IMG/VR virus record: IMGVR_UViG_3300036826_000261
Location: 8,693-72,692 of that record
Reading direction: 5' to 3' (one strand)
From: a virus
DNA length: 64,000 nucleotides
Below the pieces are notes generated by a model, which was not told the origin of the DNA, did no database searches, and worked only from the letters and a program-made list of their open reading frames with translations. Positions 5,811 through 56,488 of the stretch are shown piece after piece. Each line of letters begins with the position of its first letter. The first letter of the stretch is position 1. The translations under genes were made by a program, and so were the position numbers.

Positions 5811-8222
5811 ATGCTAGATAACAGGCATGGACGAGAACAAACAAACAACCGAGACGGCGGAAGAGCGCGAGAAGTTGTTGAATCAGCTCGACGCGACTGG
5901 CCGCAGTCTGGTCGAGCGGATTCTGGCGCAGCATCCGGAGCTGACGGCGGCGGAAGCGATCGCGCACGTCCAGGAGATGGGCGGGCTGTAGTCTCGCGCG
6001 GCGGCGGTGCTGGCCACGATGTGTCCGGCGAGCCGCGCGACGAGCAGGGCCGTTGGACCGATGGCGGCGGCGATGGTAGCGACAGCTATTCCAGCAGCCC
6101 GCCGAGTTCACGTGAAAAAGACAAGCATGTCGCAGCGGTCTACAAGCCGACTGGCGCTGCGGTTACCGCAGCCAAGAAAGCCGGTCGCACGCCGCTGGAA
6201 TTTCATCAACTGACGGCGGACGGTAATCAGCGTTTCCACGATGCGATCATTAAGGCGAAAGAAAACCTGAAGTTCGGCGCGTCGGTGCATGCCTACGATG
6301 CCGCTGACTATCGCGGCATGAAGACCTACGTGACGCCCGACGACAAGGCCGGCTTCGCGCTCAAGCCGGACGGTGATATCGTATCCGCATTCAGTCAGTC
6401 GAAGGCCAAGCGCGCCGGTGATTCGATTTTGGCGTTGGCGGTGCAGCACGGTGGCCGCAAGCTCGACGCGTTCGACACGGTGCTGCCGGCGATCTACAGC
6501 GACAACGGCTTTCGCGCAGTGGCGCGGATTCCCTGGAACGAAGAGTACAAGCCGGCCGATTGGGACAAGAACACGTTCAAGAAATTCAACGGCGGCAAGC
6601 CGGATGTCGTGTTCATGGTGCACGATCCGGCAAACGCCGCGCCCTACAAGCCGGGCGACGGCAAGCGCGTGTCGAGTTACGAGGAAGGTGTTGCCGAGCA
6701 GGACAAGGCGCTGAAGGAGATCGAGAAGGGGCGCGAGCATCCGGGCAAGGGCTATTCCCAGAACGCCTATGTCGATCATCAGGGCGTGATTCACACCTCG
6801 AACGTTTATGACGCGCAGCGCGCGCTGTTCGAGGATCGCAAGGTCGAGCTGACGCAGGTCAAGCAGATATCGACCTTGATCAAGCGGCTCGGTGAGACCG
6901 CCGCGGAGATGGCCGAGCACGGTGAAACTGCGCCGACCTTCAATCTCTGCAACGTCAGCGTCAAGGGCACCAACTTGTTTTGCGCCGACCAGATTGGCAT
7001 TCCGCGCGTCGAGATGCCGGTGATCCGCGCCGGCAAGACCAAGGACTTCATCAAGCATCTCAAGAAGCTTGGCTACAAGATCGAAGAGACCAAGGAGGAA
7101 GCGCGCAATCTTCGTGCCACACAGAACGAGATCAGTGGTACTAAGGTCGCTGCCGCGATGGCGCGGATCAAGCAGGAAGGTTTCTACAAACGTCTCGTGG
7201 TGTCGCGTGATGATTACATTCTCGATGGTCATCATACCTGGGCTGGTCAGCTCGGGCTCGACGCCAAGGATGGCGATCTCGAAGATGACGGCCGCGAAGT
7301 CAAGATCGCGCGGGTCGATATCTCGATCACCAAGTTGCTCGAAGAAGCCGAGAAGTGGACCGGCGGCGCCGGCAAGAAGCCGGCCAGCGAAGCGCCAAAG
7401 GGTTATCAGTTCGTCACGCTGCGCGAGGCGCAGCGGTTACTGGACGTGACGACCTACCAGAAGTTCGTCCTGATTGCGGGGCAGTTTCTTACAGCCAATG
7501 GCCATCTCGCGCGTGGCATCGAGAACATTCGGATCACGGTGCCGATTGCGCGCGAGTTTGACGACGCGCTGCATCCGCATCAGCCGGCCGGGCAGGGTGG
7601 TGGTCAGTTCGCGCCGACCGGCGGCAGTGACAAGCCGGCGGCGCCGAAGAAGCCGGCGGCGTCGCCGGCAGCGGCAGCAGAACCGGCTCAACTACAACCT
7701 GAACCTCCGGGATACGGATTGTCGCCAGCCGAGCACGACAAGCTCGATGATTGGACAATGGGCGAGCCGAAATCGGCGGCCTACAGCAAGATGCGCAAAG
7801 ACCCGAAGATGATCGCGATCATGGCCAAGCTGCCCAAGTACGAGGGCACGGTTTATCGCGGCACATCGTTCTACAAAGGCAAGATCGGTTCGATCAAGGT
7901 CGGGAGCATCGAAGACATCATCGGCAAGACGTTCGATATCTCCAAGCTGTCATCGTCATCGACTGATGGTGCAAAGGCTGCGGAATTTGCTGTAAATGAC
8001 GTGCTGAGCCCGACGACCGGTGAGCTGAAAAAAGGCTATACGGCCGTGGTTTTCAAGATGGATCAGATGAGTGGACATCAGGTGCCGTCGGATATCGATC
8101 GCGGCGTCGAGAAAGAAGTCGTGCTGATGCCGCACACTACTTTTCAGGCGATCAATGTCGCCGATATGACGGAAGCGACCAATGGTGTGAAGTACAAAGA
8201 AGTCACGATGAGGGAAGTATGA
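5811..8222 (+). CDS. polyvalent protein: EPRDEQGRWT motif + GNAT-like + ParB-like + C-terminal ADP-ribosyltransferase
   Basis: KLDAFDTVLPAIYSDNGF; LRATQNEI..VVSRDDYILDGHHTW (ParB/Srx-like); VYRG..SSSS..EKEVVL (R-S-E ART); true start may be later (GTG 6021). Confidence 0.75.
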   Translation: MLDNRHGREQTNNRDGGRAREVVESARRDWPQSGRADSGAASGADGGGSDRARPGDGRAVVSRGGGAGHDVSGEPRDEQGRWTDGGGDGSDSYSSSPPSSREKDKHVAAVYKPTGAAVTAAKKAGRTPLEFHQLTADGNQRFHDAIIKAKENLKFGASVHAYDAADYRGMKTYVTPDDKAGFALKPDGDIVSAFSQSKAKRAGDSILALAVQHGGRKLDAFDTVLPAIYSDNGFRAVARIPWNEEYKPADWDKNTFKKFNGGKPDVVFMVHDPANAAPYKPGDGKRVSSYEEGVAEQDKALKEIEKGREHPGKGYSQNAYVDHQGVIHTSNVYDAQRALFEDRKVELTQVKQISTLIKRLGETAAEMAEHGETAPTFNLCNVSVKGTNLFCADQIGIPRVEMPVIRAGKTKDFIKHLKKLGYKIEETKEEARNLRATQNEISGTKVAAAMARIKQEGFYKRLVVSRDDYILDGHHTWAGQLGLDAKDGDLEDDGREVKIARVDISITKLLEEAEKWTGGAGKKPASEAPKGYQFVTLREAQRLLDVTTYQKFVLIAGQFLTANGHLARGIENIRITVPIAREFDDALHPHQPAGQGGGQFAPTGGSDKPAAPKKPAASPAAAAEPAQLQPEPPGYGLSPAEHDKLDDWTMGEPKSAAYSKMRKDPKMIAIMAKLPKYEGTVYRGTSFYKGKIGSIKVGSIEDIIGKTFDISKLSSSSTDGAKAAEFAVNDVLSPTTGELKKGYTAVVFKMDQMSGHQVPSDIDRGVEKEVVLMPHTTFQAINVADMTEATNGVKYKEVTMREV
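5827..5991 (+). CDS. small helical hypothetical protein (54 aa, not in ORF track)
   Basis: MDENKQTTETAEEREKLLNQLDATGRSLVERILAQHPELTAAEAIAHVQEMGGL; overlaps the 5' extension of the next ORF in another frame. Confidence 0.5.
   Translation: MDENKQTTETAEEREKLLNQLDATGRSLVERILAQHPELTAAEAIAHVQEMGGL
6030..6071 (+). repeat. coding repeat EPRDEQGRWTDGGG, second copy at 8309-8350
   Basis: Identical peptide and near-identical DNA in two adjacent genes. Confidence 0.85.
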
Positions 8223-9808
8223 GCGAAGACAGGCTCGGCGCTCGCATCACGGAAGAGACCGACGACACGGAATGGCTCACGCCGGTCGGGCAGAAGTTTG
8301 ATCCGAACGAACCGCGTGATGAGCAGGGTCGCTGGACCGATGGCGGCGGCAGTGATGACGCCGGGTCGAGCAAGCCGGTCGGCGGTGGCGGCAAGGAAGG
8401 CGGTCAAGGCAAGAAAAAGGTCGAGAAGCTCGCCGATTTCCAGAAGGACGGCGTGCGTATCGATGCCAGTACGGCGGCCGACGACGCCAAGGCGCAAAAA
8501 TTTCTAGAGCGCTGGAATGATAAGATCGGCGAGGCGCCGGCCGAGTTCAAGCAGGAATTTCTCGGTGGCCTCAACGGCACGATGAAAGTTGGTTACGACG
8601 AACGCGAAGACCGAATCGATATCGACGGCCAGATCAAGGACGACAACGGCAGCACGATCGCGGATTATACGCGTTATGTTTTTCCTGGCCAGAACCGGGC
8701 CTATTCCGCTTACTTTGAAGTCAAACGCGCAGCGCAGCACGGAAAAGGTGGCCAGAACATCGGCAAGACGCTGCTTAAAGCCAACGTCGAGATGTATCAG
8801 AAGCTCGGTCTCGACAAGGTTACGGTGTCGGCCAATCTCGATGTCGGCGGCTACGCCTGGGCGAAATACGGCTACGTGCCGACGCGCAGTTCATGGGATT
8901 CATTGCGCGGCGCGATCGCCGACAAGCTGAACGACAACGGTGATCGCGCCAGCCATCGCGCGTCAGGTTCGGGTTATACGCCAGAAGAGTGGGATGCGAT
9001 CGGTAACGACGATCAAAGCCGGATCGAGCGGGCATGGATGGAGTCGGTGCGCGACGAGTTCGTTCAATCCGAAGAGCAGAACTACCGCGAGAGCGGGCAG
9101 GCGATGGAAGATGCCAAGCGCCAGCTCGCCGACAATTTCGATCCAACCGACAAATGGGCCGTGGCCGCGCTCAAGACGTGGCGCGAAGGGCTCGACGACG
9201 AAGGCAAGAGCATTCCCTACACCAACGAGGAATTGCTTAACGCGGTGACGATAGACGATTACTCGTCGCGCTATGGCGAGGGTCGTGACGATCCTGACAT
9301 CGAGATCGACGACAAGCAGCTTCCTGATTTGCAGCCTGGACAGGGGACGCTGCCCGGCATCGAGGTAGCGCCTGCGCTTAGCGATGACACACGCGACAAA
9401 ATCGTTAGTGTGCTTACTGAGGCGTTCAACGAACAGGCTGAAACCGACGCCGACAACGCTGATTATACGCCGGATGATCACTACATTCGCGAGTCCATGG
9501 GCGAGTACTGGGATTCGATGAGCGATCGCGACAAGTACGCCTGGGCCGAACGCAACAGCGAGTTGCCGGAATATCCGCTCGATGACGACGAGGATGTCGA
9601 GCCGGTCGAAGTAGCGGATGACACACAGCGCAGTGCGCTGTTGAAATTGACCGATAGCAATAATCCGAAGGCGCTGTGGGCGATCGCCGATTCACCGGCG
9701 GGCAAGGATTTGCTGCTCAATACCACTTGGTCCGGTGTGCTTGATCTCAAGGACAAGGACACCATGGATCGTTTCAACGCCTACGTCGGCAAAAAGAAGG
9801 CCGCTTGA
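8219..9808 (+). CDS. polyvalent protein with FDPNEPRDEQGRWT motif and GNAT-like acetyltransferase domain
   Basis: Q..G..IGKTLLKANVEMYQKLGLDKVTVSANLDVGGYAWAKYGY; long acidic insertion. Confidence 0.7.
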   Translation: MSEDRLGARITEETDDTEWLTPVGQKFDPNEPRDEQGRWTDGGGSDDAGSSKPVGGGGKEGGQGKKKVEKLADFQKDGVRIDASTAADDAKAQKFLERWNDKIGEAPAEFKQEFLGGLNGTMKVGYDEREDRIDIDGQIKDDNGSTIADYTRYVFPGQNRAYSAYFEVKRAAQHGKGGQNIGKTLLKANVEMYQKLGLDKVTVSANLDVGGYAWAKYGYVPTRSSWDSLRGAIADKLNDNGDRASHRASGSGYTPEEWDAIGNDDQSRIERAWMESVRDEFVQSEEQNYRESGQAMEDAKRQLADNFDPTDKWAVAALKTWREGLDDEGKSIPYTNEELLNAVTIDDYSSRYGEGRDDPDIEIDDKQLPDLQPGQGTLPGIEVAPALSDDTRDKIVSVLTEAFNEQAETDADNADYTPDDHYIRESMGEYWDSMSDRDKYAWAERNSELPEYPLDDDEDVEPVEVADDTQRSALLKLTDSNNPKALWAIADSPAGKDLLLNTTWSGVLDLKDKDTMDRFNAYVGKKKAA

Positions 9809-13725: not shown

Positions 13726-15189
13726 ATGGGCGCTCGCGAGTTGCTCGCGCGTGGATTGCGCACGCTTACCAAGGCGGTCGAAGGCGCGCCGCGACCAGGG
13801 CCGTACAGTCTACCCGTTACGGGCGGCTGGCTGCCGGACGGCAGTCCGACCAACTGGTGGCAGCTCGGGCAGGACCCGAATCCGTATGGCACGCGATCGG
13901 CGATGGTGGAAGCGTGCATATCGGCCTACTCGCAGACCATCGCGATGTGCCCCGGCGATCACTGGCGCAAGAAACCCAAGGGCGGACGCGAGCGTGTCGC
14001 CAATTCGGCGCTGTCGCGCATCCTGAAGAAGCCTAACGCTTACCAGACGCCGTCCGATTTCATGCTCAATGCGGTGCGGCAGGTCTATCTCGACGGCAAT
14101 GCGTACGCGCTGGCGCTGCGCAATGACCGTTTCGAAGTTTCAGAATTGCATTTGATGGACACACGGCTGTGCAAGCCGGTCGTCGCGACTACCGGTGATG
14201 TGTTCTACCGGTTAGCCGGTAACGCCGTGATCGAGAAAATGATGCTCGACGAATACCCGCTCTTGGTGCCGCAGCGGGACGTTCTGCACATCCGCTTGCA
14301 CGCCGACCGGCGATACCCGTTTCCGCTGTGGGGCCAGACGCCGTTGCTGTCGGCCGCAGCGGACATGGCGACAACGGATGCGGTGATGTCGCAACAGATT
14401 CAGTTTTATCTGAATCAGGCGCGGCCATCGGCGGTGCTGACCACTGATCTCGATCTCGACGCCGATCAGGTAGTGGCGTTGCAGGATCGCTGGGATGAGC
14501 GGTCGCGTGCGATGGCGCAGGGCAAGACGCCGGTGTTGACTCACGGCCTGAAGGTGATGCCATGGGCGTCGGTCGGTCGCGATGCGCAGCTCGCCGAACT
14601 GTTGAAATTCTCGAAAGAGAATATCGCGCTGGTGTTTCGCGTACCTTTGGCGGTGCTCGGGCTCGGCGGCGCGACCTTCGGATCGACCGAAGCGCTGATG
14701 CAGTTCTGGATTTCGACCGGTCTGGGATTTGCGCTCAACCATGTCGAGCAGGCGTTCGATCGGCTGTTTCAGCTCAAGGGCCAGCCGGATGAGTACACCG
14801 AGCTATCAACCAAGGCGTTGCTGCGCTCGGCGGCCAAGGATCGCATCGAGGCGTTGAAGGAAGGCGTCATGGGCGGCATCTACTCGCCCAACGAAGCGCG
14901 CAACGAAGAGGATTTGGATAGTGTGCCGTTCGGCGACGAGCCGCGCGTGCAGCAACAAGTGGTGCCGTTGAGCGCGGCTTCAGCCATTCAACCGGGCGCA
15001 GGCGGCGCGACGGGGCCGCATCCGCCGCCCGCGCCGCCGGCCGGCGGCCAGCCGCCTGCGGGAGGCGTGCCGATCGTTTCGTCTCAACCATCTTCGAAAG
15101 CCGACAGTTATGACGATGCAGCCTCAATCGAACGGGAAAGCCGACGAATTTTTGCTGCCGCCGCCAGAGTCTACCGACATCCTACTTGA
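13726..15189 (+). CDS. portal protein (HK97 family)
   Basis: VEACISAYSQTIA, PNAYQT..F, LDGNAYA, VLHIR, IALVFRVP, GIYSPNEAR..EDL. Confidence 0.92.
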   Translation: MGARELLARGLRTLTKAVEGAPRPGPYSLPVTGGWLPDGSPTNWWQLGQDPNPYGTRSAMVEACISAYSQTIAMCPGDHWRKKPKGGRERVANSALSRILKKPNAYQTPSDFMLNAVRQVYLDGNAYALALRNDRFEVSELHLMDTRLCKPVVATTGDVFYRLAGNAVIEKMMLDEYPLLVPQRDVLHIRLHADRRYPFPLWGQTPLLSAAADMATTDAVMSQQIQFYLNQARPSAVLTTDLDLDADQVVALQDRWDERSRAMAQGKTPVLTHGLKVMPWASVGRDAQLAELLKFSKENIALVFRVPLAVLGLGGATFGSTEALMQFWISTGLGFALNHVEQAFDRLFQLKGQPDEYTELSTKALLRSAAKDRIEALKEGVMGGIYSPNEARNEEDLDSVPFGDEPRVQQQVVPLSAASAIQPGAGGATGPHPPPAPPAGGQPPAGGVPIVSSQPSSKADSYDDAASIERESRRIFAAAARVYRHPT

Positions 15190-16936
15190 TGCGTGGCGCA
15201 AGATTCTCGGCGAAACGCTGGCGGAAGAGCGCGCCAATTGGCAGCGCAGTCGCGAATTGTCGGAAGCGCGATCCGCGCAGATCATCGCCGAGCTGAAGAC
15301 GCAATCGATGCAGCTCGTCACCGAGCTGGCGACGCGCACGTTCGAGTTGGAGCGCAAGCTTGAAGCATTGGTGCATCAGAAGTTGTCCGATGCCGAAGTC
15401 ATGATAAAAGATCGCTTGTCCAACTTGCGCGATGGTGCGCCCGGCGAGAAGGGTGAGCGCGGCGAGCGCGGCGAGAAAGGTGATCCGGGTGGCATCGGGT
15501 TAACAGGGCCGCAAGGCTATGCCGGTGAACGCGGCGAAAAGGGTGAACGCGGTGCTGTAGGTGCGCCCGGGCCGCAAGGATCGCAGGGCGAGCGCGGCGA
15601 GAAGGGCGAGCGCGGTGACGTTGGTACTGTCGGGGAGACGGGCGAAAAAGGTGATCGGGGCGAGCGGGGCGAACCAGGAGAAAGAGGCGAACATGGCGAA
15701 AAAGGCGAGCAAGGCGAAAAAGGCGAGCAAGGCGAAAAGGGCGAGCGCGGCGAACAAGGACCGCGCGGTGAAGCGGGTACGCCCGGGCGGCAAGGCGAAA
15801 AAGGCGAAAAAGGCGAAGCGGGCGAGGACGGCAGCGACGGACTGACCATCATCGGACCCGAAGGCCCGTGCGGGCCTTCCGGTCCGCGTGGTGAGCGCGG
15901 CGAGACCGGGCGGGAAGGTCTGCGCGGTCAGCCGGGCGCAATGGGTCCGGTCGGCGGGCAAGGCCCGCGCGGCGAACCGGGCGAGCCCGGTGCACCGGGT
16001 GCGGATGGCCCGGCAGGTCCGGCAGGCTCGGTCGGTCCAAGCGGACCACCGGGCGAGTCCGGCGCACCGGGCGATATCGGCCCGATGGGTCTGCGCGGAC
16101 CTATGGGCGAGCGCGGTGAGCGCGGTGAGCGCGGCGCCAAGGGCGATCCCGGCGATATCGTGATCGGTCCGCAAGGGCCTGCAGGCGAACGTGGTGAGCG
16201 CGGCGCACCGGGCGCGCATGGTCCGACAGGTCCGGTCGGTCCACGCGGTGAACAGGGCAAGCCGGGGCGTGACGGAGTTGACGGAGTACGCGGCGCACCG
16301 GGCGCGCATGGTCCGACAGGTCCGGCTGGTCCGCGCGGCGAGCCGGGTCTACCTGGGCGTGACGGAGCTGACGGAGCGCGCGGCGCCGATGGCGCACGTG
16401 GCGCCGACGGCGCGCCGGGGCGTTTGCCGCCGGTCAAGCAGTGGCAAGCCGACGTCGTGTATTATGCCGGCGACGTGGTGAGCCACGAGCGCGGATCGTA
16501 TCAGGCGCTGAAAGACACCAGCCGGCAGCCGGGCCGTAATCACGATTGGATTTGCATCGCCAGCGGCGGCGTCGATGCACGGTCGCCGCATGTGCGCGGC
16601 ACCTATGATCCAACGGCCAGCTATCAGGCGCTCGACATCGTTGTCAGCAACGGCGGCAGTTTCATCGCCAGGAAAGACGATCCGGGCGAGCTGCCGGGCG
16701 ACGGCTGGCAATTGATGGCGCGGCAAGGCCAGCGCGGCGTTGCCGGCGAGAAGGGCGAACGCGGCGAGCCCGGCGCACCGGGAGCGAAAGGCGAGCCCGG
16801 CGAGGTGGTGTTCAAGGGCTGGACCCATGACTGGAAAAACTTCGTTGCCGTGCCGCTGATGGCCGATGGCAAGCGTGGTCCGACCTTGGAGCTGCGCGGT
16901 TACTTCGAGCAATTCCAGAAAGACACCGATGGCTGA
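15110..16936 (+). CDS. collagen-like (Gly-X-Y) fibre protein with N-terminal coiled coil and C-terminal CBM-like repeats
   Basis: About 100 Gly-X-Y triplets (about 15434-16420); W...VVYYAGDVVSH and Y.ALDIVV.NGGSFIA. Confidence 0.85.
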   Translation: MTMQPQSNGKADEFLLPPPESTDILLDAWRKILGETLAEERANWQRSRELSEARSAQIIAELKTQSMQLVTELATRTFELERKLEALVHQKLSDAEVMIKDRLSNLRDGAPGEKGERGERGEKGDPGGIGLTGPQGYAGERGEKGERGAVGAPGPQGSQGERGEKGERGDVGTVGETGEKGDRGERGEPGERGEHGEKGEQGEKGEQGEKGERGEQGPRGEAGTPGRQGEKGEKGEAGEDGSDGLTIIGPEGPCGPSGPRGERGETGREGLRGQPGAMGPVGGQGPRGEPGEPGAPGADGPAGPAGSVGPSGPPGESGAPGDIGPMGLRGPMGERGERGERGAKGDPGDIVIGPQGPAGERGERGAPGAHGPTGPVGPRGEQGKPGRDGVDGVRGAPGAHGPTGPAGPRGEPGLPGRDGADGARGADGARGADGAPGRLPPVKQWQADVVYYAGDVVSHERGSYQALKDTSRQPGRNHDWICIASGGVDARSPHVRGTYDPTASYQALDIVVSNGGSFIARKDDPGELPGDGWQLMARQGQRGVAGEKGERGEPGAPGAKGEPGEVVFKGWTHDWKNFVAVPLMADGKRGPTLELRGYFEQFQKDTDG

Positions 16937-44149: not shown

Positions 44150-45432
44150 CCAGAAAAATTATCGGCGAACAACACCCCAACGTGCGGGCGGGCACCAGTC
44201 CGCCGCATCCTGCGCAAACCGATTCGACCGTGCCGGTCACCGACGTGGTGCAGATCGGTCCGCCGGGGCCGCCCGGCCCGAACGGTCCGCCGGGACCGCC
44301 CGGCCCGACTGGCGCGGTCGGGCAGACCGGTCCGCAGGGGCCGCAAGGCCCGCAGGGACCGCAAGGCCCGCAGGGCTCGCAAGGCCCGCAGGGACCATCC
44401 GGGCCGCCCGGCGGCCTCGGCGAAGCGCCGAGCGACAGCACGTCCTACGGCCGCAGAAACGCGGCGTGGTCGTCGGTCACCGAAGAGGCGCCGAACGACG
44501 GCCAGACCTACGGTCGCAAGAACAAGGCATGGGTGGTCGGCGGCGGCGGTGGCGCCACGGTCACCGCGTCGGATACGCCGCCGGGCTCGCCGAGCGCCGG
44601 CAGCCTGTGGTTCAACACAACCAACGGCCAGCTCTACATCTATTTCAACGACGGCACATCGTCGCAATGGGTGTTCGCGTCGGGTGGCGTGCAGAATCAA
44701 CCGCAGGTGCCGCGCGGCGCGCTCGGCGGGTTGACGCTGTCCACGGCGGGCAGTTCGGCGACGTTCACGGTGCAGCCCGGACGCGCTGCGGATTCCACCG
44801 CTGCATTGCTGATGAACCTCGCATCGGCGATGAACAAGACCACCAGCGCATGGGCGGCGGGCAGCGGCAACGGCGCGCTCGACACCGGCGCGATCAGCGC
44901 GGCGGCTTGGTACCATGTCTTTTTGATCATGAACCCGACGTCGGGCGCGGTCGATATCCTGATCTCGCTGTCGGCGACGGCACCGACCATGCCGTCCGGC
45001 TACACGCTGTTCCGGCGCATCGGCTCGATGCTGACCGCGTCGTCGCTGTGGGTGAAATTTTCGCAGCGCGGCGACGAATTTTTGTGGGATGCGCCGGTCG
45101 TCAACGCCAGCGCAGTCGCGTTCACCGTGACTGCGACATTGCTGGCGCTGGGTGTGCCGCCGGGGATTCAGGTCAACGCGTTCGGGCAGGTGCGCGCCGA
45201 CTACGCCACCAACGCGGCGACTTTCACGCTGTCATCGCCGGACATCACGGCGCCGGTGGTCGGCAGCGCCACGTCATCGTTGGTGGTCTCGGGTACTTCC
45301 ACCAACTCGGTCAGTTACTTCAACATCCGCACCAACACCGCGCAGCAAATCCGTTATCAGGCCAACGGCACCGGTCCGACCTTCAGCCTGGGCACGTTCG
45401 GCTGGATCGATCGTCGCGGCAAGGACGATTAG
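44146..45432 (+). CDS. collagen-containing fibre protein
   Basis: GPQ repeats, EAP.DG..YGRKN.AW, P...GSLWFNT..GQLYIY. Confidence 0.75.
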
Positions 45433-45433
45433 C

Positions 45434-46948
45434 ATGCTGGATTTTCCCAATTCGCCATCGCTCAATCAGTTGTTTCCGACCACCAACCCGCAATGGCAGT
45501 GGAACGGCACGGCGTGGACGCCCTATGTGCTGTCGCAGGTGTCCGGGCTGCAGGTCAAGGTTCGGGTGTTCACTTCGACGCAGACCTACGCGCCGACGCC
45601 CGGCTTGCAATTCGCAATGGTTGAATGTCTCGGCGGCGGTGGCGGTGGCGGCGGCTGCGGCGGCGCTGCATCGCAATCGGTCGGGTCGGGCGGCGGCGCG
45701 TCCGGCTCGTACTCGCGGTCGCTGTTGAGCGCCGCGCAGATCGGCGCGTCACAGGCCATTACCATCGGCGCGGCGGGCTCTGGCGGCGCGTCCGGGCAGA
45801 ACAACGGCGGCACCGGCGGCCAGACATCGTTCGGTGCACTGGTGACGGCGCCGGGCGGCGGCGGTGGTGTCGCCGGCAGCGGCGCGGCCAGCCCGTCGAA
45901 CGGCATTGCCGGCGCGGCGGGTGTCGGTGATTTCGCGATCCGAGGCAATGATGGCGGTTCCGGCATGTACGTGCCTTCGGCCACCGCGACCGCCTATGGC
46001 GGCTTCGGCGCGCCGAGCCAGTTCGGCGGCATGGCGTGCGCGCTGCAAGCGGCGTCATCGGCCTCGAACGGCAGTACGGGCAAAGGTTACGGTGCGGGTG
46101 GCTCGGGCGGCGCCTCGATGGGCGTTGCGACCACGGCGTCCGGCGGCGCCGGTGTCGCGGGCGTCTGTATCGTCACCGAGTTCGGCAATTTCGGCTATGT
46201 GCCGCCGATCTTCGTCATGCGTTCGTATCTCGCCGGCTATACGTTGTCATCGCCAGGGTCTTCGAGCTTGTTCACGGCGCAGCCGGGACAAGCCGCCGAT
46301 TCGACCAATGCCGACTACATCAGCCTGACGGCGGCGATCAACAAATCCACTAGTGCGTGGGCGGCCGGCACCGGCAATGGCGGGCTCGACACCGGCGCGA
46401 TCGCGATCAACACGTGGTACCACGTTTTCGCGATCAAGAACCCAACGACAAATGTCGTCGATATTCTGATTTCGCTATCGGCGACGGCGCCGACCATGCC
46501 AAGCGGCTACACGCTGTTCCGGCGCATCGGTTCGATCAAGACCAATTCGTCATCGCAATGGAAGGGGTTCAGCCAGCGTGGTGATGAATTTATCCTGACT
46601 GAAACGCTGACCCAAGATGTTAACACAACAACTCTCGGCACAACGGCGACGCCGTACACCTTGGCGTCGGTTCCGAGCGGCATTCAGGTCATCGCGATGT
46701 TTCGCGGCTCGATGCAAAACGCAGCAGGAAACGCCATCACGATTTCGTCACCGGATGAATTGTCGGTGGCGGTCAACACCCCCGCCGGCAACTTGACGAT
46801 CTCGAATGGCGCTGGGTTGACAGTTGATTTCCAACTGCAGCTTCGAACTAACACAAGTCAGCAGATTCGCGCGGTGTCGCTGAATGCGAACACAACTTTC
46901 TATGTCGTGCCGTACGGTTGGCTCGATCGGCGCGGCCAAGACAACTAA
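45434..46948 (+). CDS. Gly-rich fibre protein sharing a C-terminal domain with 44146-45432
   Basis: MLDFPNSP..WQWNGTAW; shared [32 protein letters not shown]. Confidence 0.75.
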   Translation: MLDFPNSPSLNQLFPTTNPQWQWNGTAWTPYVLSQVSGLQVKVRVFTSTQTYAPTPGLQFAMVECLGGGGGGGGCGGAASQSVGSGGGASGSYSRSLLSAAQIGASQAITIGAAGSGGASGQNNGGTGGQTSFGALVTAPGGGGGVAGSGAASPSNGIAGAAGVGDFAIRGNDGGSGMYVPSATATAYGGFGAPSQFGGMACALQAASSASNGSTGKGYGAGGSGGASMGVATTASGGAGVAGVCIVTEFGNFGYVPPIFVMRSYLAGYTLSSPGSSSLFTAQPGQAADSTNADYISLTAAINKSTSAWAAGTGNGGLDTGAIAINTWYHVFAIKNPTTNVVDILISLSATAPTMPSGYTLFRRIGSIKTNSSSQWKGFSQRGDEFILTETLTQDVNTTTLGTTATPYTLASVPSGIQVIAMFRGSMQNAAGNAITISSPDELSVAVNTPAGNLTISNGAGLTVDFQLQLRTNTSQQIRAVSLNANTTFYVVPYGWLDRRGQDN

Positions 46949-52565: not shown

Positions 52566-52670
52566 GCCTGCACGATGTTTTTGCCGGCGAAAAATTTTCT
52601 TGACTTTTCGCCAAACCCGTCGCTCGCTTCCCGGATTCGTAAAATCAAAATGCTAAAGGGAGAGAAGCAA

Positions 52671-53549
52671 ATGGCGAAAAAGGCACCCGTCAGTGAAATC
52701 ATCGAAATCCAAGCTATCGAAATGGCGTCGCTGGATTTCCATGTGGTCGGCACCAGCCCGTTCATCATGCATCGCTTCAGTCAGAAGGCGTGGCAGGAAT
52801 TGCTGCTGCCGTCGATCCGCGAAAACCGCGCTAGTCTCGAACAGAAGCTCAAGCATGATCCGTATGCAGAATTTCGTGGCGCGTTCTATCGCAACAGCAA
52901 TCCGCGCGCCAAGACGGCGTACCATATTCCAAACGGCGCGTTTCACGGCGCGATCGCCAGCGCCGCGCTCGACATGCCGGGTGCCAAGAAGGCGCAGATC
53001 GAGCGGTTGACCAAGATCACCAGCGTCAACATCGAACTGTATGGCATCCCGAAAATCTTTTGCAGCATGGTGCGTAACAGCGACATCTCGCGCACGCCAG
53101 ATGTGCGCACCCGGCCGATCTTCCCGCGCTGGGCGTGCACGGTTTCGGTGCGCTACGCGAAGAACGCGTTGACGGCCAAAGCCGTCGCCAATCTGTTCGG
53201 CGCGGCGGGCGAGATCATCGGCATCGGTGATTGGCGCGGTCAGAAGGGCGGACCGTTCGGCGCGTTCCGCACCAACGTGTCGGTGAACGATAAAGAGTTC
53301 AAGAGCATCTTGAAGGAAGGCCGCGTCGCGCAATTGAAAGCTTACGACAAACCGTTGTTCTACGATGAAGACACGGAAGAAATTTTAACGTGGTTCGCCA
53401 CCGAGGTGCGCCGCCGTGAGTTGGAAGGCAAGATGCGCAGCGATAACGTCAAGGAGTTTCGCGTTATCACCGAGCGCGGCAAGGAGCGCGGCAACGGCGA
53501 GTTGGTGAGCCTTGACGACAAGCGGCGGACCCGTCGAAAGGCCGCGTGA
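52671..53549 (+). CDS. stand-alone Cas7/RAMP-like RNA-binding protein (Vipr-like effector)
   Basis: VVGTSPFIMH first strand, IP..AF..AI..A, R.RP.FP.W, and C-terminal Gly-rich loop GIGDWR..KGGPFGAF typical of RAMP-fold proteins; no other cas genes in the window. Confidence 0.75.
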   Translation: MAKKAPVSEIIEIQAIEMASLDFHVVGTSPFIMHRFSQKAWQELLLPSIRENRASLEQKLKHDPYAEFRGAFYRNSNPRAKTAYHIPNGAFHGAIASAALDMPGAKKAQIERLTKITSVNIELYGIPKIFCSMVRNSDISRTPDVRTRPIFPRWACTVSVRYAKNALTAKAVANLFGAAGEIIGIGDWRGQKGGPFGAFRTNVSVNDKEFKSILKEGRVAQLKAYDKPLFYDEDTEEILTWFATEVRRRELEGKMRSDNVKEFRVITERGKERGNGELVSLDDKRRTRRKAA

Positions 53550-54043
53550 TGGCGAAAGCCACCAAACACGACCGCATCAAAGCGGCGTTGGAAGCGATCA
53601 GGCGCTCGCATCGCGGGCGCTTGACGGCGCGGGCCGTGGTCGAGGCGGCCAAAAATCCTAGGCACCCGTTGCACAGTGAATTTGAATGGAACAACCAGAA
53701 AGCAGCGGATCAGCAACGCTTGGAGCGTGCGCGCGAACTAATCAGATACGTCACGGTCGTGGTCGTTGATGCAACGCGTAAAGTCGAAACACGATTTTAT
53801 GCGCACGATCCGCGAACGCCGCATCGTGAAGGCTATGTCAGCATCTTGGAGATGAACCGCCGCGATGCTGAACAAGATGTGGTCAACGCTATCGCGATCT
53901 GTCAATCGACGATCGATCGCGCGCTCAGCAAAGCGGAATTTCTCAGCGCGAAGCATCGTGGTGTTTCACGATTGTTGAAAAATGCAGTTGCTACCCTTGC
54001 CGCCGCGCATGATCTGCTCGAAGGCTCGGCGGCAGCGGCGTGA
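53549..54043 (+). CDS. accessory protein coupled to the RAMP-like gene
   Basis: LT..AVVEAA..P.HPLH..FEW....AA...RL..AR.LIR motif; start overlaps the RAMP stop. Confidence 0.7.
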   Translation: MAKATKHDRIKAALEAIRRSHRGRLTARAVVEAAKNPRHPLHSEFEWNNQKAADQQRLERARELIRYVTVVVVDATRKVETRFYAHDPRTPHREGYVSILEMNRRDAEQDVVNAIAICQSTIDRALSKAEFLSAKHRGVSRLLKNAVATLAAAHDLLEGSAAAA

Positions 54044-54048
54044 AGTCA

Positions 54049-54269
54049 TAGGCATGGCAGGCTAGGCAAGGTGCGGCCCGGCCGGAGTAGGTTCGGTGCG
54101 GCAAGGCAGGCATGGCCCGGGAGACGCGGTGAAGCGTGTCCGTGATCTGGTAGCGTCGGGTAAGGCGGCGTTGGATGGGGTGAGGCGAGGCAGGCTTGGT
54201 CAGGTCTGACGAGACTGGGCGCGGTAGGTTTTGGCGCGGTACGGCAAGGCGTGATGCGGTAAGGCAGGC
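54049..54269 (+). ncRNA. GGY-NN pentamer array, block 1 (3 units)
   Basis: Starts TAGGCATGGCA; GGCA separators at 54056, 54105, 54189, 54263 (spacings 49/84/74 = 5n+4). Confidence 0.85.
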
Positions 54270-54527
54270 ATGGCCAGAAACACAGCGGATAAGGTTCTCG
54301 AAAACAAGTTGCGGCTGATCGCCAAACGGCGGGGTTTGTTTCTTTCGAAATCCCGTCGTCGCGATCCGTTTGCGCTCGACTTTGGTTATGAGTTGAGAGA
54401 CGCGCAACAGCACGTCATCGAAACAGCGTGCAGTCTTACTCGAATCGAAAACTTGTTAGCTCTCGGTCGGACGGGGCGGAAACGTTTAACAGTCGAAGGA
54501 TGGCGTCACATCATCCTTGGTAAGTAG
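54270..54527 (+). CDS. small basic protein embedded in the array
   Basis: ENKLRLIAKRRGL.L.KSRRRDP.ALDFGY; non-repetitive, lower-GC insert. Confidence 0.65.
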   Translation: MARNTADKVLENKLRLIAKRRGLFLSKSRRRDPFALDFGYELRDAQQHVIETACSLTRIENLLALGRTGRKRLTVEGWRHIILGK

Positions 54528-56488
54528 GCATGGCAGGCGTGGCCGGGCCGGGTTGTCCCCGGTGTGGCAGAGCATGGCAGCGCAGGGTTGACATGGCAGG
54601 GCAGGCAGGGTCCGTCGTGGTCGCGCGGGATTGGGCGGGGCAAGGCACGGCACGATGCTGGTCTGGCGAGGCGTGGCAGGCATGGCTGGATCAGGCGTGA
54701 CGAAGCTTGGTGTAGCTAGGCCGGGTGCAGTGTAGGCATGGCGAGGCAGGCGCGGCGGGACAAGGTCCGATATGGCGTGGCGCGGTCTGGTTCGGTCTGG
54801 CCGGGTTTGGCAGGCAAGGTGCGTCGAGGCCAAACATGGTGTGACAAGGTACGGCGCGGCCTGATCTGGGCTCGACTGGGCAGGCGCGGTGGGTTCTGGC
54901 TCGACATGGTTAGGCGAGGCCCGGTGATGCCCGGCATGTTGAAGTGCGTCCTGGCAGGCGTGGCGGGGGTGCGTGCGAGGCGGGACCGGGCAAGGTCGGG
55001 CACGTTATATGGTCTGGCTGGGCACGGCTTGGCGGGTCACGGCAAGGCACGGCCGGCAAGGTTTGTCCGGAACCGGTTTGGCTTGGCGAGATGCGATTAG
55101 GCGAGGCGAAGCGAGGCCGGCTAAGCGTGACTTGGTCGGGTAGACGTGGCCGGGCACGGTAGCGGCGTGGATCGGCCGGCGACGCTAGGCTTGTCGTCGA
55201 TCGGCATGACATGGCGCGGCACGGCGAGGCGTGGTTCGGCCGGCGCGATTAGGTGTGGTCGGAATCGGCATGGCTCGGTGTCGCGTGGTCTGGCGTGGCT
55301 CGGCTGGGCCGGCTGGCGGGATTTGGCTTGATGCGGTCAGGCAAGGTCCGGCCCGGATCGGCGCGGCATGGCCGGCGTGGTCTGGCTTGAAGTGGTTGGG
55401 ATTAGGCGTGGCGCGGTATGACGCGGTGAGGCAGGCGGGGAGTGGCTAGACGTGGCTGCGCGCAACAAGGTCGGTCAAGTCCTGGTTTAGGCGTGGTGTG
55501 ACGCTGTGAGGCAGGCAAGGCCCGGACGGGCAAGACCGGATTAGGCATGGCGATGCTGGGCCGGCGGGGCACGGTGGAGGCCCGGACGGGCACGGCCGGG
55601 CAAGGCGTGGCAATGCAAGGCAGGCAAGACTTGGCAGGGCGCGGCCCGGCGAGAAATGGTTTGGCGCGGCGCGGCAGGCATGGCAGGGCGATACATGGTC
55701 AGGCGAAGCACGGCACAGCAGGGCAGGCGGGACTGGGTGTTCTGGGCACGGCTGGGCACGGCCGAAGCATGGCCGGCGAGGCTTGTCCTGGCACGGCGGG
55801 GCTGAGGCGTGGCAGCGTTTAGGCGCGGCCGGCGAGGCTTGTCCTGATTCGGCGGGGCTCGGCTTAGGCGCGGCCGGGTCGGTCACGGCAAGGCAGGCAC
55901 GGCTAGGCGTGGCAGGGAGCGGCAACGCCGGGTCGGGCGTGGCTGGGCTAGGCGACGGCGAGGCGAGGCGTGGTGCGGCAGGCGCGGCATGACAAGGCGC
56001 TGTGAGACCCGGCTTGGCAGGGTGCGGTACGGCATGGCTCGGCAGCGCTAGGCTTGGCAGGCACAGGTGATGCGGCGCGCGACAAGGCGGGACAGGGCGA
56101 GGCCGGCGCGGCATGAAAAGGCGCGGCGCGTTCGGGTGCAGCGCGGCGGGGTTGCGGCAAGGCACGGCTCGGCAGGACCGGCGGGGCTGGGCGTGTCTGG
56201 GCACGGCTCGGCGCGGCACGGCACGGTCCGGCAACGCCGGCAGCGCTGGGCGAGACATGGCATGGCTTGGCGGGGCTGGACACGGTGAGGCGAGGCAGGC
56301 GCGATCTGGCGTGGTTTGGCGTGGCGGGGCGAGGTACGAGCTGGGCGAGGCGAGGCAGGCGTGGTCGGGCGCAACGCGATGTGGTGTGACTGGTCGCGGC
56401 TCGCTGCGGTACGGCCCGGCAGGCGGGACTGGGCGTTGCTGGATCAGGTTCGGCCCGGCATGGCTAGGCGTGGCAGGCGGCGCAGGCG
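54525..56488 (+). ncRNA. GGY-NN pentamer array, block 2 (about 30 units)
   Basis: Continuous 5-nt periodicity of GG(C/T)NN with GGCA/GGCC tetramer separators about every 45-85 nt; only low-complexity spurious ORFs. Confidence 0.9.

What the first reader, a model, noticed from the sequence alone, without database searches (positions are those of the whole stretch)
54060..56471. Variable NN dinucleotides form a gapped code (NN-x-NN-x) that skips the codon wobble position
I extracted the NN from each unit by hand and inserted one unread base between pairs. At least ten units then give codon positions 1-2 of recognisable conserved motifs, on either strand. Examples: 56422-56471 NN = GG TG GT TG CA TC CC AT TA GT, whose reverse complement reads T-Y-I-G-E-W-H-T-H-P; 55514-55558 gives Q-S-I-Y-R-F-R-G; 55242-55306 gives H-D-T-S-T-T-E-I-E-R-T-Y-A. 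Inference: guides recognise 2 of every 3 target bases, so third-position synonymous mutation cannot escape them. Residues with ambiguous two-base prefixes (e.g. D/E, H/Q) were chosen to fit, and some units contain 4- or 6-nt irregular pentamers.
Basis: partly seen in the sequence, partly recalled or inferred. Interest (0 to 1): 0.96.

Follow-up and report, generated by a model that had tools for sequence, protein, structure and literature searches.

The report
Phage VIPR guide-RNA array, gapped code

Summary
Window 54050-56488 (+) is a real array of about 400 five-base units nnGGY. GGY is conserved and NN is nearly random. Four-base units (mostly AGGC or CGGC) cut it into 31 guides of 8-18 units. 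Directly upstream lie a Cas7-like gene, whose family profile matches the solved SUSP1 Vipr protein (E 3.5e-19), and a conserved partner gene. This is a VIPR system (bioRxiv 10.64898/2026.04.26.720920).

I tested the rule here with gapped patterns from four guides:
- **U03:** three exact hits; one, 18/18, is in frame in a rival phage's vipr gene. The phage's own vipr matches only 16/18.
- **U08:** 20/20, in frame in the catalytic-arginine box of a tyrosine integrase, in two viral contigs.
- **U40:** 67 metagenome contigs, all 67 in frame in the active-site motif of JAB genes, mostly cap3 of type II CBASS operons.
- **U24** (the "helicase" guide): no support.

In all, 70 of 72 exact hits put the skipped base at the wobble position. 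"At least ten units" was not established.

Verdict: a new member of a known kind. This scan has already noted VIPR in at least 103 other genomes. The CBASS match is the only part not in the VIPR main texts I searched.

The parts
52671..53549 (+). vipr gene (Cas7-like RAMP), 292 aa as P0001; the open frame runs from 52575 (324 aa)
   Evidence: A profile of 32 homologues matches PDB 36pp_D 'SUSP1 Vipr protein' at E 3.5e-19 over profile positions 20-204; the single sequence gives only E 0.0034. The AF2 model (pLDDT 87) has Foldseek top hits to Csm3, Cmr4, type VII Cas7 and Cas7-11. A glycine-rich loop G.G[DE]WR...G..G is invariant in the alignment.
53546..54043 (+). conserved partner gene (165 aa, phrog_15946), probably the vipr-accessory (vap) gene
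   Evidence: Homologues lie beside vipr homologues in 23 of the 119 pattern-found loci and in both Gordonia phages. No Pfam, NCBIfam or PDB sequence match. The AF2 model (pLDDT 89.8) is an N-terminal helix/strand domain plus one long helix. Foldseek gives only weak winged-helix-like rows, E 0.4 or worse.
54050..54269 (+). vrRNA array, first block (my units U02-U06)
   Evidence: Parse.
54270..54527 (+). 85-aa ORF that interrupts the array; an orphan, possibly not a gene
   Evidence: No pentamer rhythm inside it. No family hit. The only database match is itself.
54526..56488 (+). vrRNA array, main block (U07-U41), staggered: guides are separated only by 4-nt units (AGGC 25, CGGC 13, others 5 over both blocks)
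   Evidence: No k-mer of 14 nt recurs more than 3 times, so there is no invariant tail.
54063..54107 (+). guide U03 (9 units), aimed at rival vipr genes
   Evidence: 18/18 read bases match L123 5803-5828, in frame as FAEYRGAFY in a vipr homologue 61% identical to P0001. The decoded peptide fits 2 of 120 homologous proteins.
52863..52888 (-). the phage's own vipr codons YAEFRGAFY: a near-target of U03 with 2 mismatches
   Evidence: It is the only match in the window at up to 2 mismatches, and 0 of 100 shuffles gave any match. It is also the best skip-1 match in the whole 72.7-kb genome.
54539..54588 (+). guide U08 (10 units), aimed at a tyrosine integrase
   Evidence: 20/20 read bases match L126 11191-11219 and L127 2498-2526, in frame as LLMLTGQRRT in a 405-aa protein with Pfam Phage_integrase, Arm-DNA-bind_3 and Phage_int_M.
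56425..56474 (+). guide U40 (10 units), spelling the JAB/JAMM active-site motif
   Evidence: 67 exact hits in metagenome contigs, 67 of 67 in frame as TY[IM]G[ED]WHTHP. All 9 proteins tested are Pfam Prok-JAB and match PADLOC JAB or E1-E2 models.
56183..56237 (+). guide U36 (11 units): shares its first four NN with U40 and reverse-decodes to ...V-[HQ]-T-[HQ]-P
   Evidence: No good match in the 67 JAB loci, best 16/22. Not scanned in the collections.

Best explanation
Window 52671-56488 is a VIPR (Viral Interference Programmable Repeat) locus of an uncultured myovirus. It holds a vipr gene (a minimal Cas7-like RAMP), a conserved accessory gene, and a 'staggered' array of about 31 guide RNAs (vrRNAs).

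Shown here:
- The protein family.
- The nnGGY architecture and its tight linkage to vipr genes in unrelated phages.
- That the NN strings of three guides, read with one skipped base between pairs, equal codon positions 1-2 of real genes elsewhere.

Inferred from the papers on other VIPR systems:
- The array is transcribed and cut into guides.
- Vipr protomers polymerise along each guide, one per pentamer, burying GGY and presenting NN.
- The filament pairs NN with double-stranded DNA while skipping every third base, and blocks transcription.

Because only codon-determining bases are read, one guide covers all synonymous variants of a peptide motif. The targets found point to conflict between mobile elements (a rival's vipr gene, an integrase of the kind satellites and prophages use) and possibly to a host defence operon (cap3 of CBASS).
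For: - **Protein:** profile match to the solved SUSP1 Vipr at E 3.5e-19, a Cas7-type fold and a G-rich loop.
- **Array:** 403 pentamers with conserved GGY and near-random NN, and 31 units of 8-18 pentamers, against 9-16 in the paper.
- **Linkage:** a scan of viral contigs for five GGC at 5-nt spacing, with no protein input, returned 119 loci. Of these, 70 carry a Vipr-profile hit, and in 66 a same-strand array lies within 1500 nt (median 49 nt). Gordonia phages Ecliptus and Pipp have the same gene-array pair.
- **Code:** U03, U08 and U40 have exact in-frame targets. Skip 1 alone works on those loci. The U03 pattern read backwards found 0 hits. Matches end exactly at the 4-nt punctuation. NN composition favours codon positions 1-2.
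Against: - No expression, processing or binding data exist for this locus.
- Only 4 of the 31 guides of 8 or more units could be scanned in the big collections, and one of them (U24) found nothing above its control. U40 had 0 hits in viral contigs.
- 24 other guides of 8 or more units had no match of 80% or better beyond chance in the DNA held locally. Counts for skips 0/1/2/3 were 12/14/5/6.
- The composition test beats a uniform model by only 9 log-likelihood units.
- There is no invariant 3' tail of the kind type II vrRNAs carry. I read the 4-nt units as the 'staggered' form from a figure legend alone.
- The host is unknown, so no target has been shown to meet this phage.
- The metagenome scan had no control pattern.
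Confidence: 0.93

Rival explanations
1. It is a VIPR array, but most of the reader's 'recognisable motifs' are over-fitting. Only a minority of guides have coding, wobble-phased targets, and the rest aim at non-coding DNA, at other vrRNAs, or at nothing now in existence.
For: A two-base prefix leaves many residues ambiguous, and either strand may be chosen. The helicase example failed. 24 guides found nothing locally. The October 2026 preprint reports guides that target other vrRNAs and decoy repeats, which are non-coding sites (and the abstract).
Against: NN composition over all 36 segments favours codon positions 1-2.
Confidence: 0.35
2. The stretch is not a guide array. It is a decayed pentanucleotide microsatellite, a protein-coding repeat (for example the 270-aa frame 55446-56258 on the minus strand), or a DNA site for a repeat-binding protein such as a partition or packaging factor.
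For: Tandem Repeats Finder sees only short, imperfect 5- and 10-nt arrays. Open frames of 60-270 aa cross the region. Strong G-over-C skew of about +0.3.
Against: Decay would hit all five positions alike, yet three are conserved and two are free. Four-base units break every reading frame every 45-75 nt. The array is linked to a Vipr gene in 66 unrelated loci. Three NN strings match real genes exactly and in frame.
Confidence: 0.02
3. The JAB match of guide U40 is a real silencing target in the host's CBASS operon, so the phage uses VIPR as an RNA-guided anti-defence weapon as well as against rival mobile elements.
For: All 67 exact hits are in JAB genes. In 3 of 3 loci checked by Pfam the gene order is patatin, DncV-like cyclase, E2/E1, JAB. 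A Cap2-like neighbour is present in 27 of the 34 loci with 2.3 kb or more upstream. There were 0 hits in viral contigs against 67 in metagenome contigs. A second guide (U36) decodes to the same H-T-H-P end.
Against: The JAB gene is last in these operons, so a roadblock there should spare the cyclase and the effector. From recall, not checked here: loss of Cap3 does not weaken CBASS. The hits come from many unrelated samples and show motif conservation, not contact with this phage. The host is unknown. JAB genes also ride on mobile elements. U36 found no match.
Confidence: 0.35

Closest known systems
VIPR systems with staggered vrRNA arrays (bioRxiv 10.64898/2026.04.26.720920; main text and the legend of fig. 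S18 read; the figure and supplements not seen)
   Same: A Vipr RAMP plus one accessory gene, carried by a phage. Guides are made of GGY/NN pentamers, 8-18 per guide here against 9-16 in the paper. Neighbouring guides overlap by one base, seen here as a 4-nt unit. Targets are read with one skipped base that falls on the wobble position. No flanking motif was needed for the matches I found.
   Different: This copy is a new sequence: 100% matches are only to itself, and the next Vipr is 82% identical. Its Vipr carries a C-terminal helical extension of about 90 aa shared only with its closest clade. An orphan 85-aa ORF splits the array. I could not assign one of the seven types, because the classification data are in supplements that are closed.
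Type II VIPR of Escherichia phage SUSP1 (PDB 36pp; bioRxiv 10.64898/2026.04.26.720927, abstract and outline only; 10.64898/2026.10.15.759431, sections 6 and 8 read)
   Same: Homologous Vipr (profile E 3.5e-19). Guides against a mobile element's recombinase and against relatives' vipr genes, with a lower match to the phage's own copy.
   Different: SUSP1 has four separate vrRNAs of about 100 nt, each ending in an invariant pseudoknot tail. Here about 31 guides abut with no tail. Direct sequence similarity is weak (E 0.0034). SUSP1's function is shown by experiment; nothing here is.
Class 1 CRISPR-Cas backbone (Cas7/Csm3/Cmr4 on crRNA)
   Same: The fold of the protein (Foldseek E about 1e-5). 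One protomer per fixed number of guide bases, with periodic unread bases.
   Different: No repeat-spacer array and no other cas genes appeared among the genes I annotated around the locus. The period is 5 with 3 buried bases, not 6 with 1. The target is read discontinuously.
TRAP-type proteins that bind triplets spaced by 2-3 nt (recalled, not checked here)
   Same: A protein oligomer reading a conserved triplet every 5 nt of RNA.
   Different: In TRAP the triplets are the whole signal. Here the spacer dinucleotides carry the information and pair with DNA.

Membership tests
VIPR system | A Vipr protein: a minimal RAMP with an RRM core, a glycine-rich loop and a thumb | tested here: met
   Profile match to PDB 36pp_D SUSP1 Vipr at E 3.5e-19. 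Cas7-family Foldseek hits. Invariant G-loop residues. I did not examine the thumb separately.
VIPR system | vrRNA genes made of tandem YNNGG/GGYNN pentamers, with GGY conserved and NN hypervariable, beside vipr | tested here: met
   403 pentamers; G 0.90, G 0.80, Y 0.96; NN 0.07 and 0.01 bits. The array starts 7 nt after the partner gene, on the same strand. The relative L123 has an array of the same build with entirely different NN.
VIPR system | Targets specified by NN with a one-nucleotide skip | tested here: met
   In silico only. 3 of 4 guides scanned have exact matches with skip 1, and skips 0, 2 and 3 give 12-15 of 18-20 on the same loci.
VIPR system | An accessory vap gene next to vipr | tested here: inconclusive
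   A conserved 165-aa neighbour co-occurs with vipr in 23 of 119 loci. No vap sequence was available for comparison. The fold is only weakly winged-helix-like.
VIPR system | vrRNAs expressed, bound by Vipr, and repressing matching DNA | not testable with these tools
   This needs RNA sequencing and biochemistry.
Type II VIPR (SUSP1 clade) | Each vrRNA ends in an invariant structured 3' tail | tested here: not met
   No recurring sequence longer than the AGGC/CGGC units; the commonest 14-mer occurs 3 times. No Rfam family in the window. So I do not file it as type II.
CRISPR-Cas | A repeat-spacer array and cas genes beyond a single RAMP | tested here: not met
   No identical direct repeats. The neighbouring genes I annotated are phage lysis and structural genes or have no known family.

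The most novel reading that the evidence does not exclude
Guide U40, and perhaps U36, is aimed at the JAB (cap3) gene of type II CBASS operons or of related ubiquitin-like conjugation defences. That would make this phage's VIPR an RNA-guided anti-defence weapon. Because only codon positions 1-2 are read, a single 10-unit guide matches 51 distinct DNA versions and 60 distinct proteins carrying one active-site motif. In effect it is a reader of a peptide motif, not of a DNA allele. No paper in the library holds both the VIPR terms and CBASS or Cap3 (supplements not seen). Other agents of this scan have raised similar anti-defence readings on other genomes; those notes are unchecked.
Probability: 0.35. 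Interest if true: 0.6.

Novelty: new member of a known kind. Interest (0 to 1): 0.33.

Why it matters
The gapped code itself is not new. It was published in April 2026, with biochemistry, structures and phage experiments. This locus adds three things:
- An independent check of the rule, by sequence alone, in an environmental phage far from the E. coli and Pseudomonas systems studied. It shows a guide perfect against a rival's vipr gene and two mismatches away from the phage's own copy.
- A large tail-less array of about 31 guides, useful for working out how staggered arrays are processed.
- A guide that spells the catalytic motif of a bacterial immune-operon gene. If that is a real target, phages would be using RNA guidance against host defence, not only against other mobile elements.

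Tried and rejected
**Before the protein match settled the identity**
- I considered a decayed microsatellite, a coding repeat, a TRAP-like RNA-binding site, a partition or packaging site, telomere-like repeats and R-loop-forming switch-like DNA.
- Rfam found nothing in the window.

**Searches for relatives and the host**
- Single-protein searches for relatives of the two flanking small genes in viral contigs found none.
- A scan of genome contigs with P0001 gave one distant locus, L122.
- Nucleotide search of the tail and lysis region against phages gave no match. The portal protein has only relatives of about 30% identity, from many hosts. The host is therefore unknown.

**Target searches that gave nothing**
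- Guides against the phage's own genome: only U03 stands out.
- Guides against about 1 Mb of pattern-found loci, and against 0.5 Mb of target loci: no further targets.
- Guides of the relative L123 against this phage: no reciprocal targeting.
- Decoded guides against 120 Vipr homologues: only U03 fits.
- U36 against the 67 JAB loci: best 16/22.
- U24: no support.

**Other blanks**
- The promoter and terminator scan was uninformative.
- RNA runs: no RNA holder was listed.
- The 85-aa ORF has no relatives.
- The partner protein has no PDB sequence match and only weak fold rows.
- I did not ask for supplements of the VIPR papers, because they are closed. They hold the type assignments, the target tables (data S3, S4) and fig. 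S18, which may bear on the type of this locus and on whether defence-gene targets are already listed.
Full report
**What is there.** The window is 64 kb of a 72.7-kb, 98%-complete uncultured virus record. The virus has terminase, portal, capsid-protease, tail sheath, Mu-type baseplate and lysis genes, so it is a myovirus.

From 54050 to 56488 the plus strand is built of five-base units. GGC follows GGC at exactly 5 nt in 108 of 253 successive pairs. Autocorrelation peaks at every multiple of 5, and nothing like it occurs elsewhere in the window. GC skew is about +0.3.

A Viterbi parse finds 403 pentamers outside an embedded ORF. Positions 3-5 are G (0.90), G (0.80) and C/T (0.96). Positions 1-2 are almost random, at 0.07 and 0.01 bits.

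The rhythm is reset by 43 four-base units (AGGC 25, CGGC 13, others 5). These divide the array into 42 segments, of which 31 hold 8-18 pentamers. There is no recurring tail: the commonest 14-mer occurs three times.

**What it is.** Two co-directional genes lie just upstream. One encodes 292 aa (52671-53549; the open frame starts at 52575; phrog_4652). The other encodes 165 aa (53546-54043; phrog_15946). Neither has a Pfam or NCBIfam match.

The larger protein has at least 671 database relatives, all unnamed. A profile of 32 of them matches one solved structure, PDB 36pp chain D, 'SUSP1 Vipr protein', at E 3.5e-19 over nearly its whole length. The single sequence matches it only at E 0.0034. 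The AlphaFold model (pLDDT 87) finds Csm3, Cmr4, type VII Cas7 and Cas7-11 as its best structural matches.

The name led to three 2026 preprints on VIPR, Viral Interference Programmable Repeat.
- The first I read in its Results, Discussion and two Methods sections. It describes a phage-borne minimal RAMP, an accessory gene, and guide RNAs of 9-16 YNNGG repeats whose NN pairs specify a double-stranded DNA target with one skipped base between pairs. The skipped base usually falls on the codon wobble position, and targets lie on either strand. A figure legend describes 'staggered' arrays in which neighbouring guides overlap by one base. That is what a 4-nt unit in a 5-nt rhythm amounts to.
- The second I saw only as abstract and outline. 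It gives the structural basis.
- The third I read in sections 6 and 8. It shows guides against a satellite's recombinase, and guides against relatives' vipr genes that match the bearer's own copy less well.

- By single-sequence tblastn, 48 of them encode a relative of the 292-aa protein and 23 a relative of the 165-aa protein.
- With a profile, 70 of 119 have a Vipr hit. In 66 of those a GGY-period-5 array lies on the same strand within 1500 nt, at a median distance of 49 nt. Two have an array only on the other strand and two have none by my criterion.
- Gordonia phages Ecliptus and Pipp carry the same pair of genes with a 190-220-nt array between them.

**Testing the code on this array.** I turned four guides into patterns with one N between NN pairs and scanned the public collections for exact matches.
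- **U03 (54063-54107, 18 read bases).** It found three viral loci. One lies in a vipr gene 61% identical to this phage's, in frame, reading FAEYRGAFY. The other two are one identical sequence, out of frame with a stop, and look like chance. On that locus skips 0, 2 and 3 reach only 12-13 of 18. The same pattern read backwards found nothing. The phage's own vipr (52863-52888) reads YAEFRGAFY and matches 16 of 18. It is the only site in the window within two mismatches, and 0 of 100 shuffles gave any.
- **U08 (54539-54588, 20 read bases).** It found two viral contigs. Both hits are in frame as LLMLTGQRRT, in the same 405-aa tyrosine integrase with an arm-binding domain.
- **U40 (56425-56474, 20 read bases).** It found nothing in viral contigs but 67 metagenome contigs. 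All 67 are in frame as TY[IM]G[ED]WHTHP inside open frames, mostly of 129-198 aa. They comprise 51 distinct 29-mers and 60 distinct proteins. The skipped positions take every synonymous base, and only G at the tryptophan codon.
It found nothing in viral contigs. In 401 genomes at up to one mismatch it scored 1 hit against 4 for the backwards control, and that hit is not in a helicase-like frame.

In sum, 70 of 72 exact hits put the skipped base at codon position 3. The matches stop exactly at the 4-nt units.

A composition test on all 36 segments of five or more pentamers gives the following log-likelihoods.

| Model for NN | Log-likelihood |
|---|---|
| Codon positions 1-2 | -941.8 |
| Codon positions 2-3 | -972.7 |
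| Codon positions 3-1 | -1015.9 |
| Uniform | -951.0 |

**What the targets are.** The vipr and integrase targets repeat themes already published for SUSP1.

The JAB target is different. All 9 hit proteins tested are Pfam Prok-JAB and match the PADLOC JAB or E1-E2 models. In 3 of 3 loci checked, the upstream genes are patatin, a DncV-like cyclase and an E2/E1 protein, which is the order of a type II CBASS operon. By phmmer with those verified proteins, a Cap2-like gene is present in 42 of 67 loci, and in 27 of the 34 that have 2.3 kb or more upstream. A cyclase is present in 19 of those 34 and a patatin in 15.

None of the VIPR-holding papers in the library contains the words CBASS, Cap3 or JAB in its main text.

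Whether this phage ever meets such an operon is unknown. The JAB gene is the last in the operon, so a simple transcription block there would not obviously disarm it.

**Limits.**
- Nothing here shows RNA, processing, binding or repression for this locus.
- The metagenome scan had no control pattern.
- 'At least ten motif-bearing units' is therefore unproven. All three validated guides are antisense to their target gene, so 'either strand' is not shown here.
- I could not assign one of the seven VIPR types. The lack of a tail argues against type II.

**Standing.** This scan has noted VIPR loci 123 times in at least 103 genomes, including longer arrays and other proposed anti-defence guides. Those notes are unchecked, and I use them as leads only.

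Noticed in passing
window 54270-54527 (+): An 85-aa ORF sits inside the guide array and splits it into two blocks. Each block opens with the same TAGGCATGGCAGGC signature. The ORF has no relatives in the 5.8-billion-protein collection other than itself, and its ATG lies inside a pentamer.
   Followed up: partly
window 53285-53549 (C-terminal part of vipr; residues about 205-292 of P0001): This Vipr and its closest clade (about 280-300 aa) carry a helical C-terminal extension of about 90 aa that the usual Viprs of about 200 aa lack (alignment, model). Its role is unknown.
   Followed up: no
L002 6641-6910 (Gordonia phage Pipp, gene 43) and L001 6644-6832 (Gordonia phage Ecliptus, gap between genes 19 and 20): Both named phages carry a vipr homologue followed by a GGC-period-5 array. 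In Pipp the array is annotated as a protein-coding gene, which is probably a mis-annotation.
   Followed up: partly
L144 669-4235 and L150 3572-7138: A single 1188-aa protein fuses E2, E1 (ThiF), JAB and patatin phospholipase domains, so a whole CBASS-type regulatory and effector set sits in one chain.
   Followed up: no
window 45152-46948 (+): A tail-fibre-like protein has a glycine-rich domain and a weak match (E 0.0017, below the cut-off) to the second domain of Mtd, the target protein of diversity-generating retroelements. I did not look for a reverse transcriptase or template repeat.
   Followed up: no
window 15110-16936 (+): A 608-aa protein with eight collagen triple-helix repeat stretches and a carbohydrate-binding module lies among the structural genes.
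   Followed up: no
L123, reverse-complement coordinates 8087-9061: The rival phage whose vipr gene U03 matches has its own staggered array of the same AGGC-punctuated build, with entirely different NN. None of its 13 guides of 8 or more units matches this phage.
   Followed up: yes
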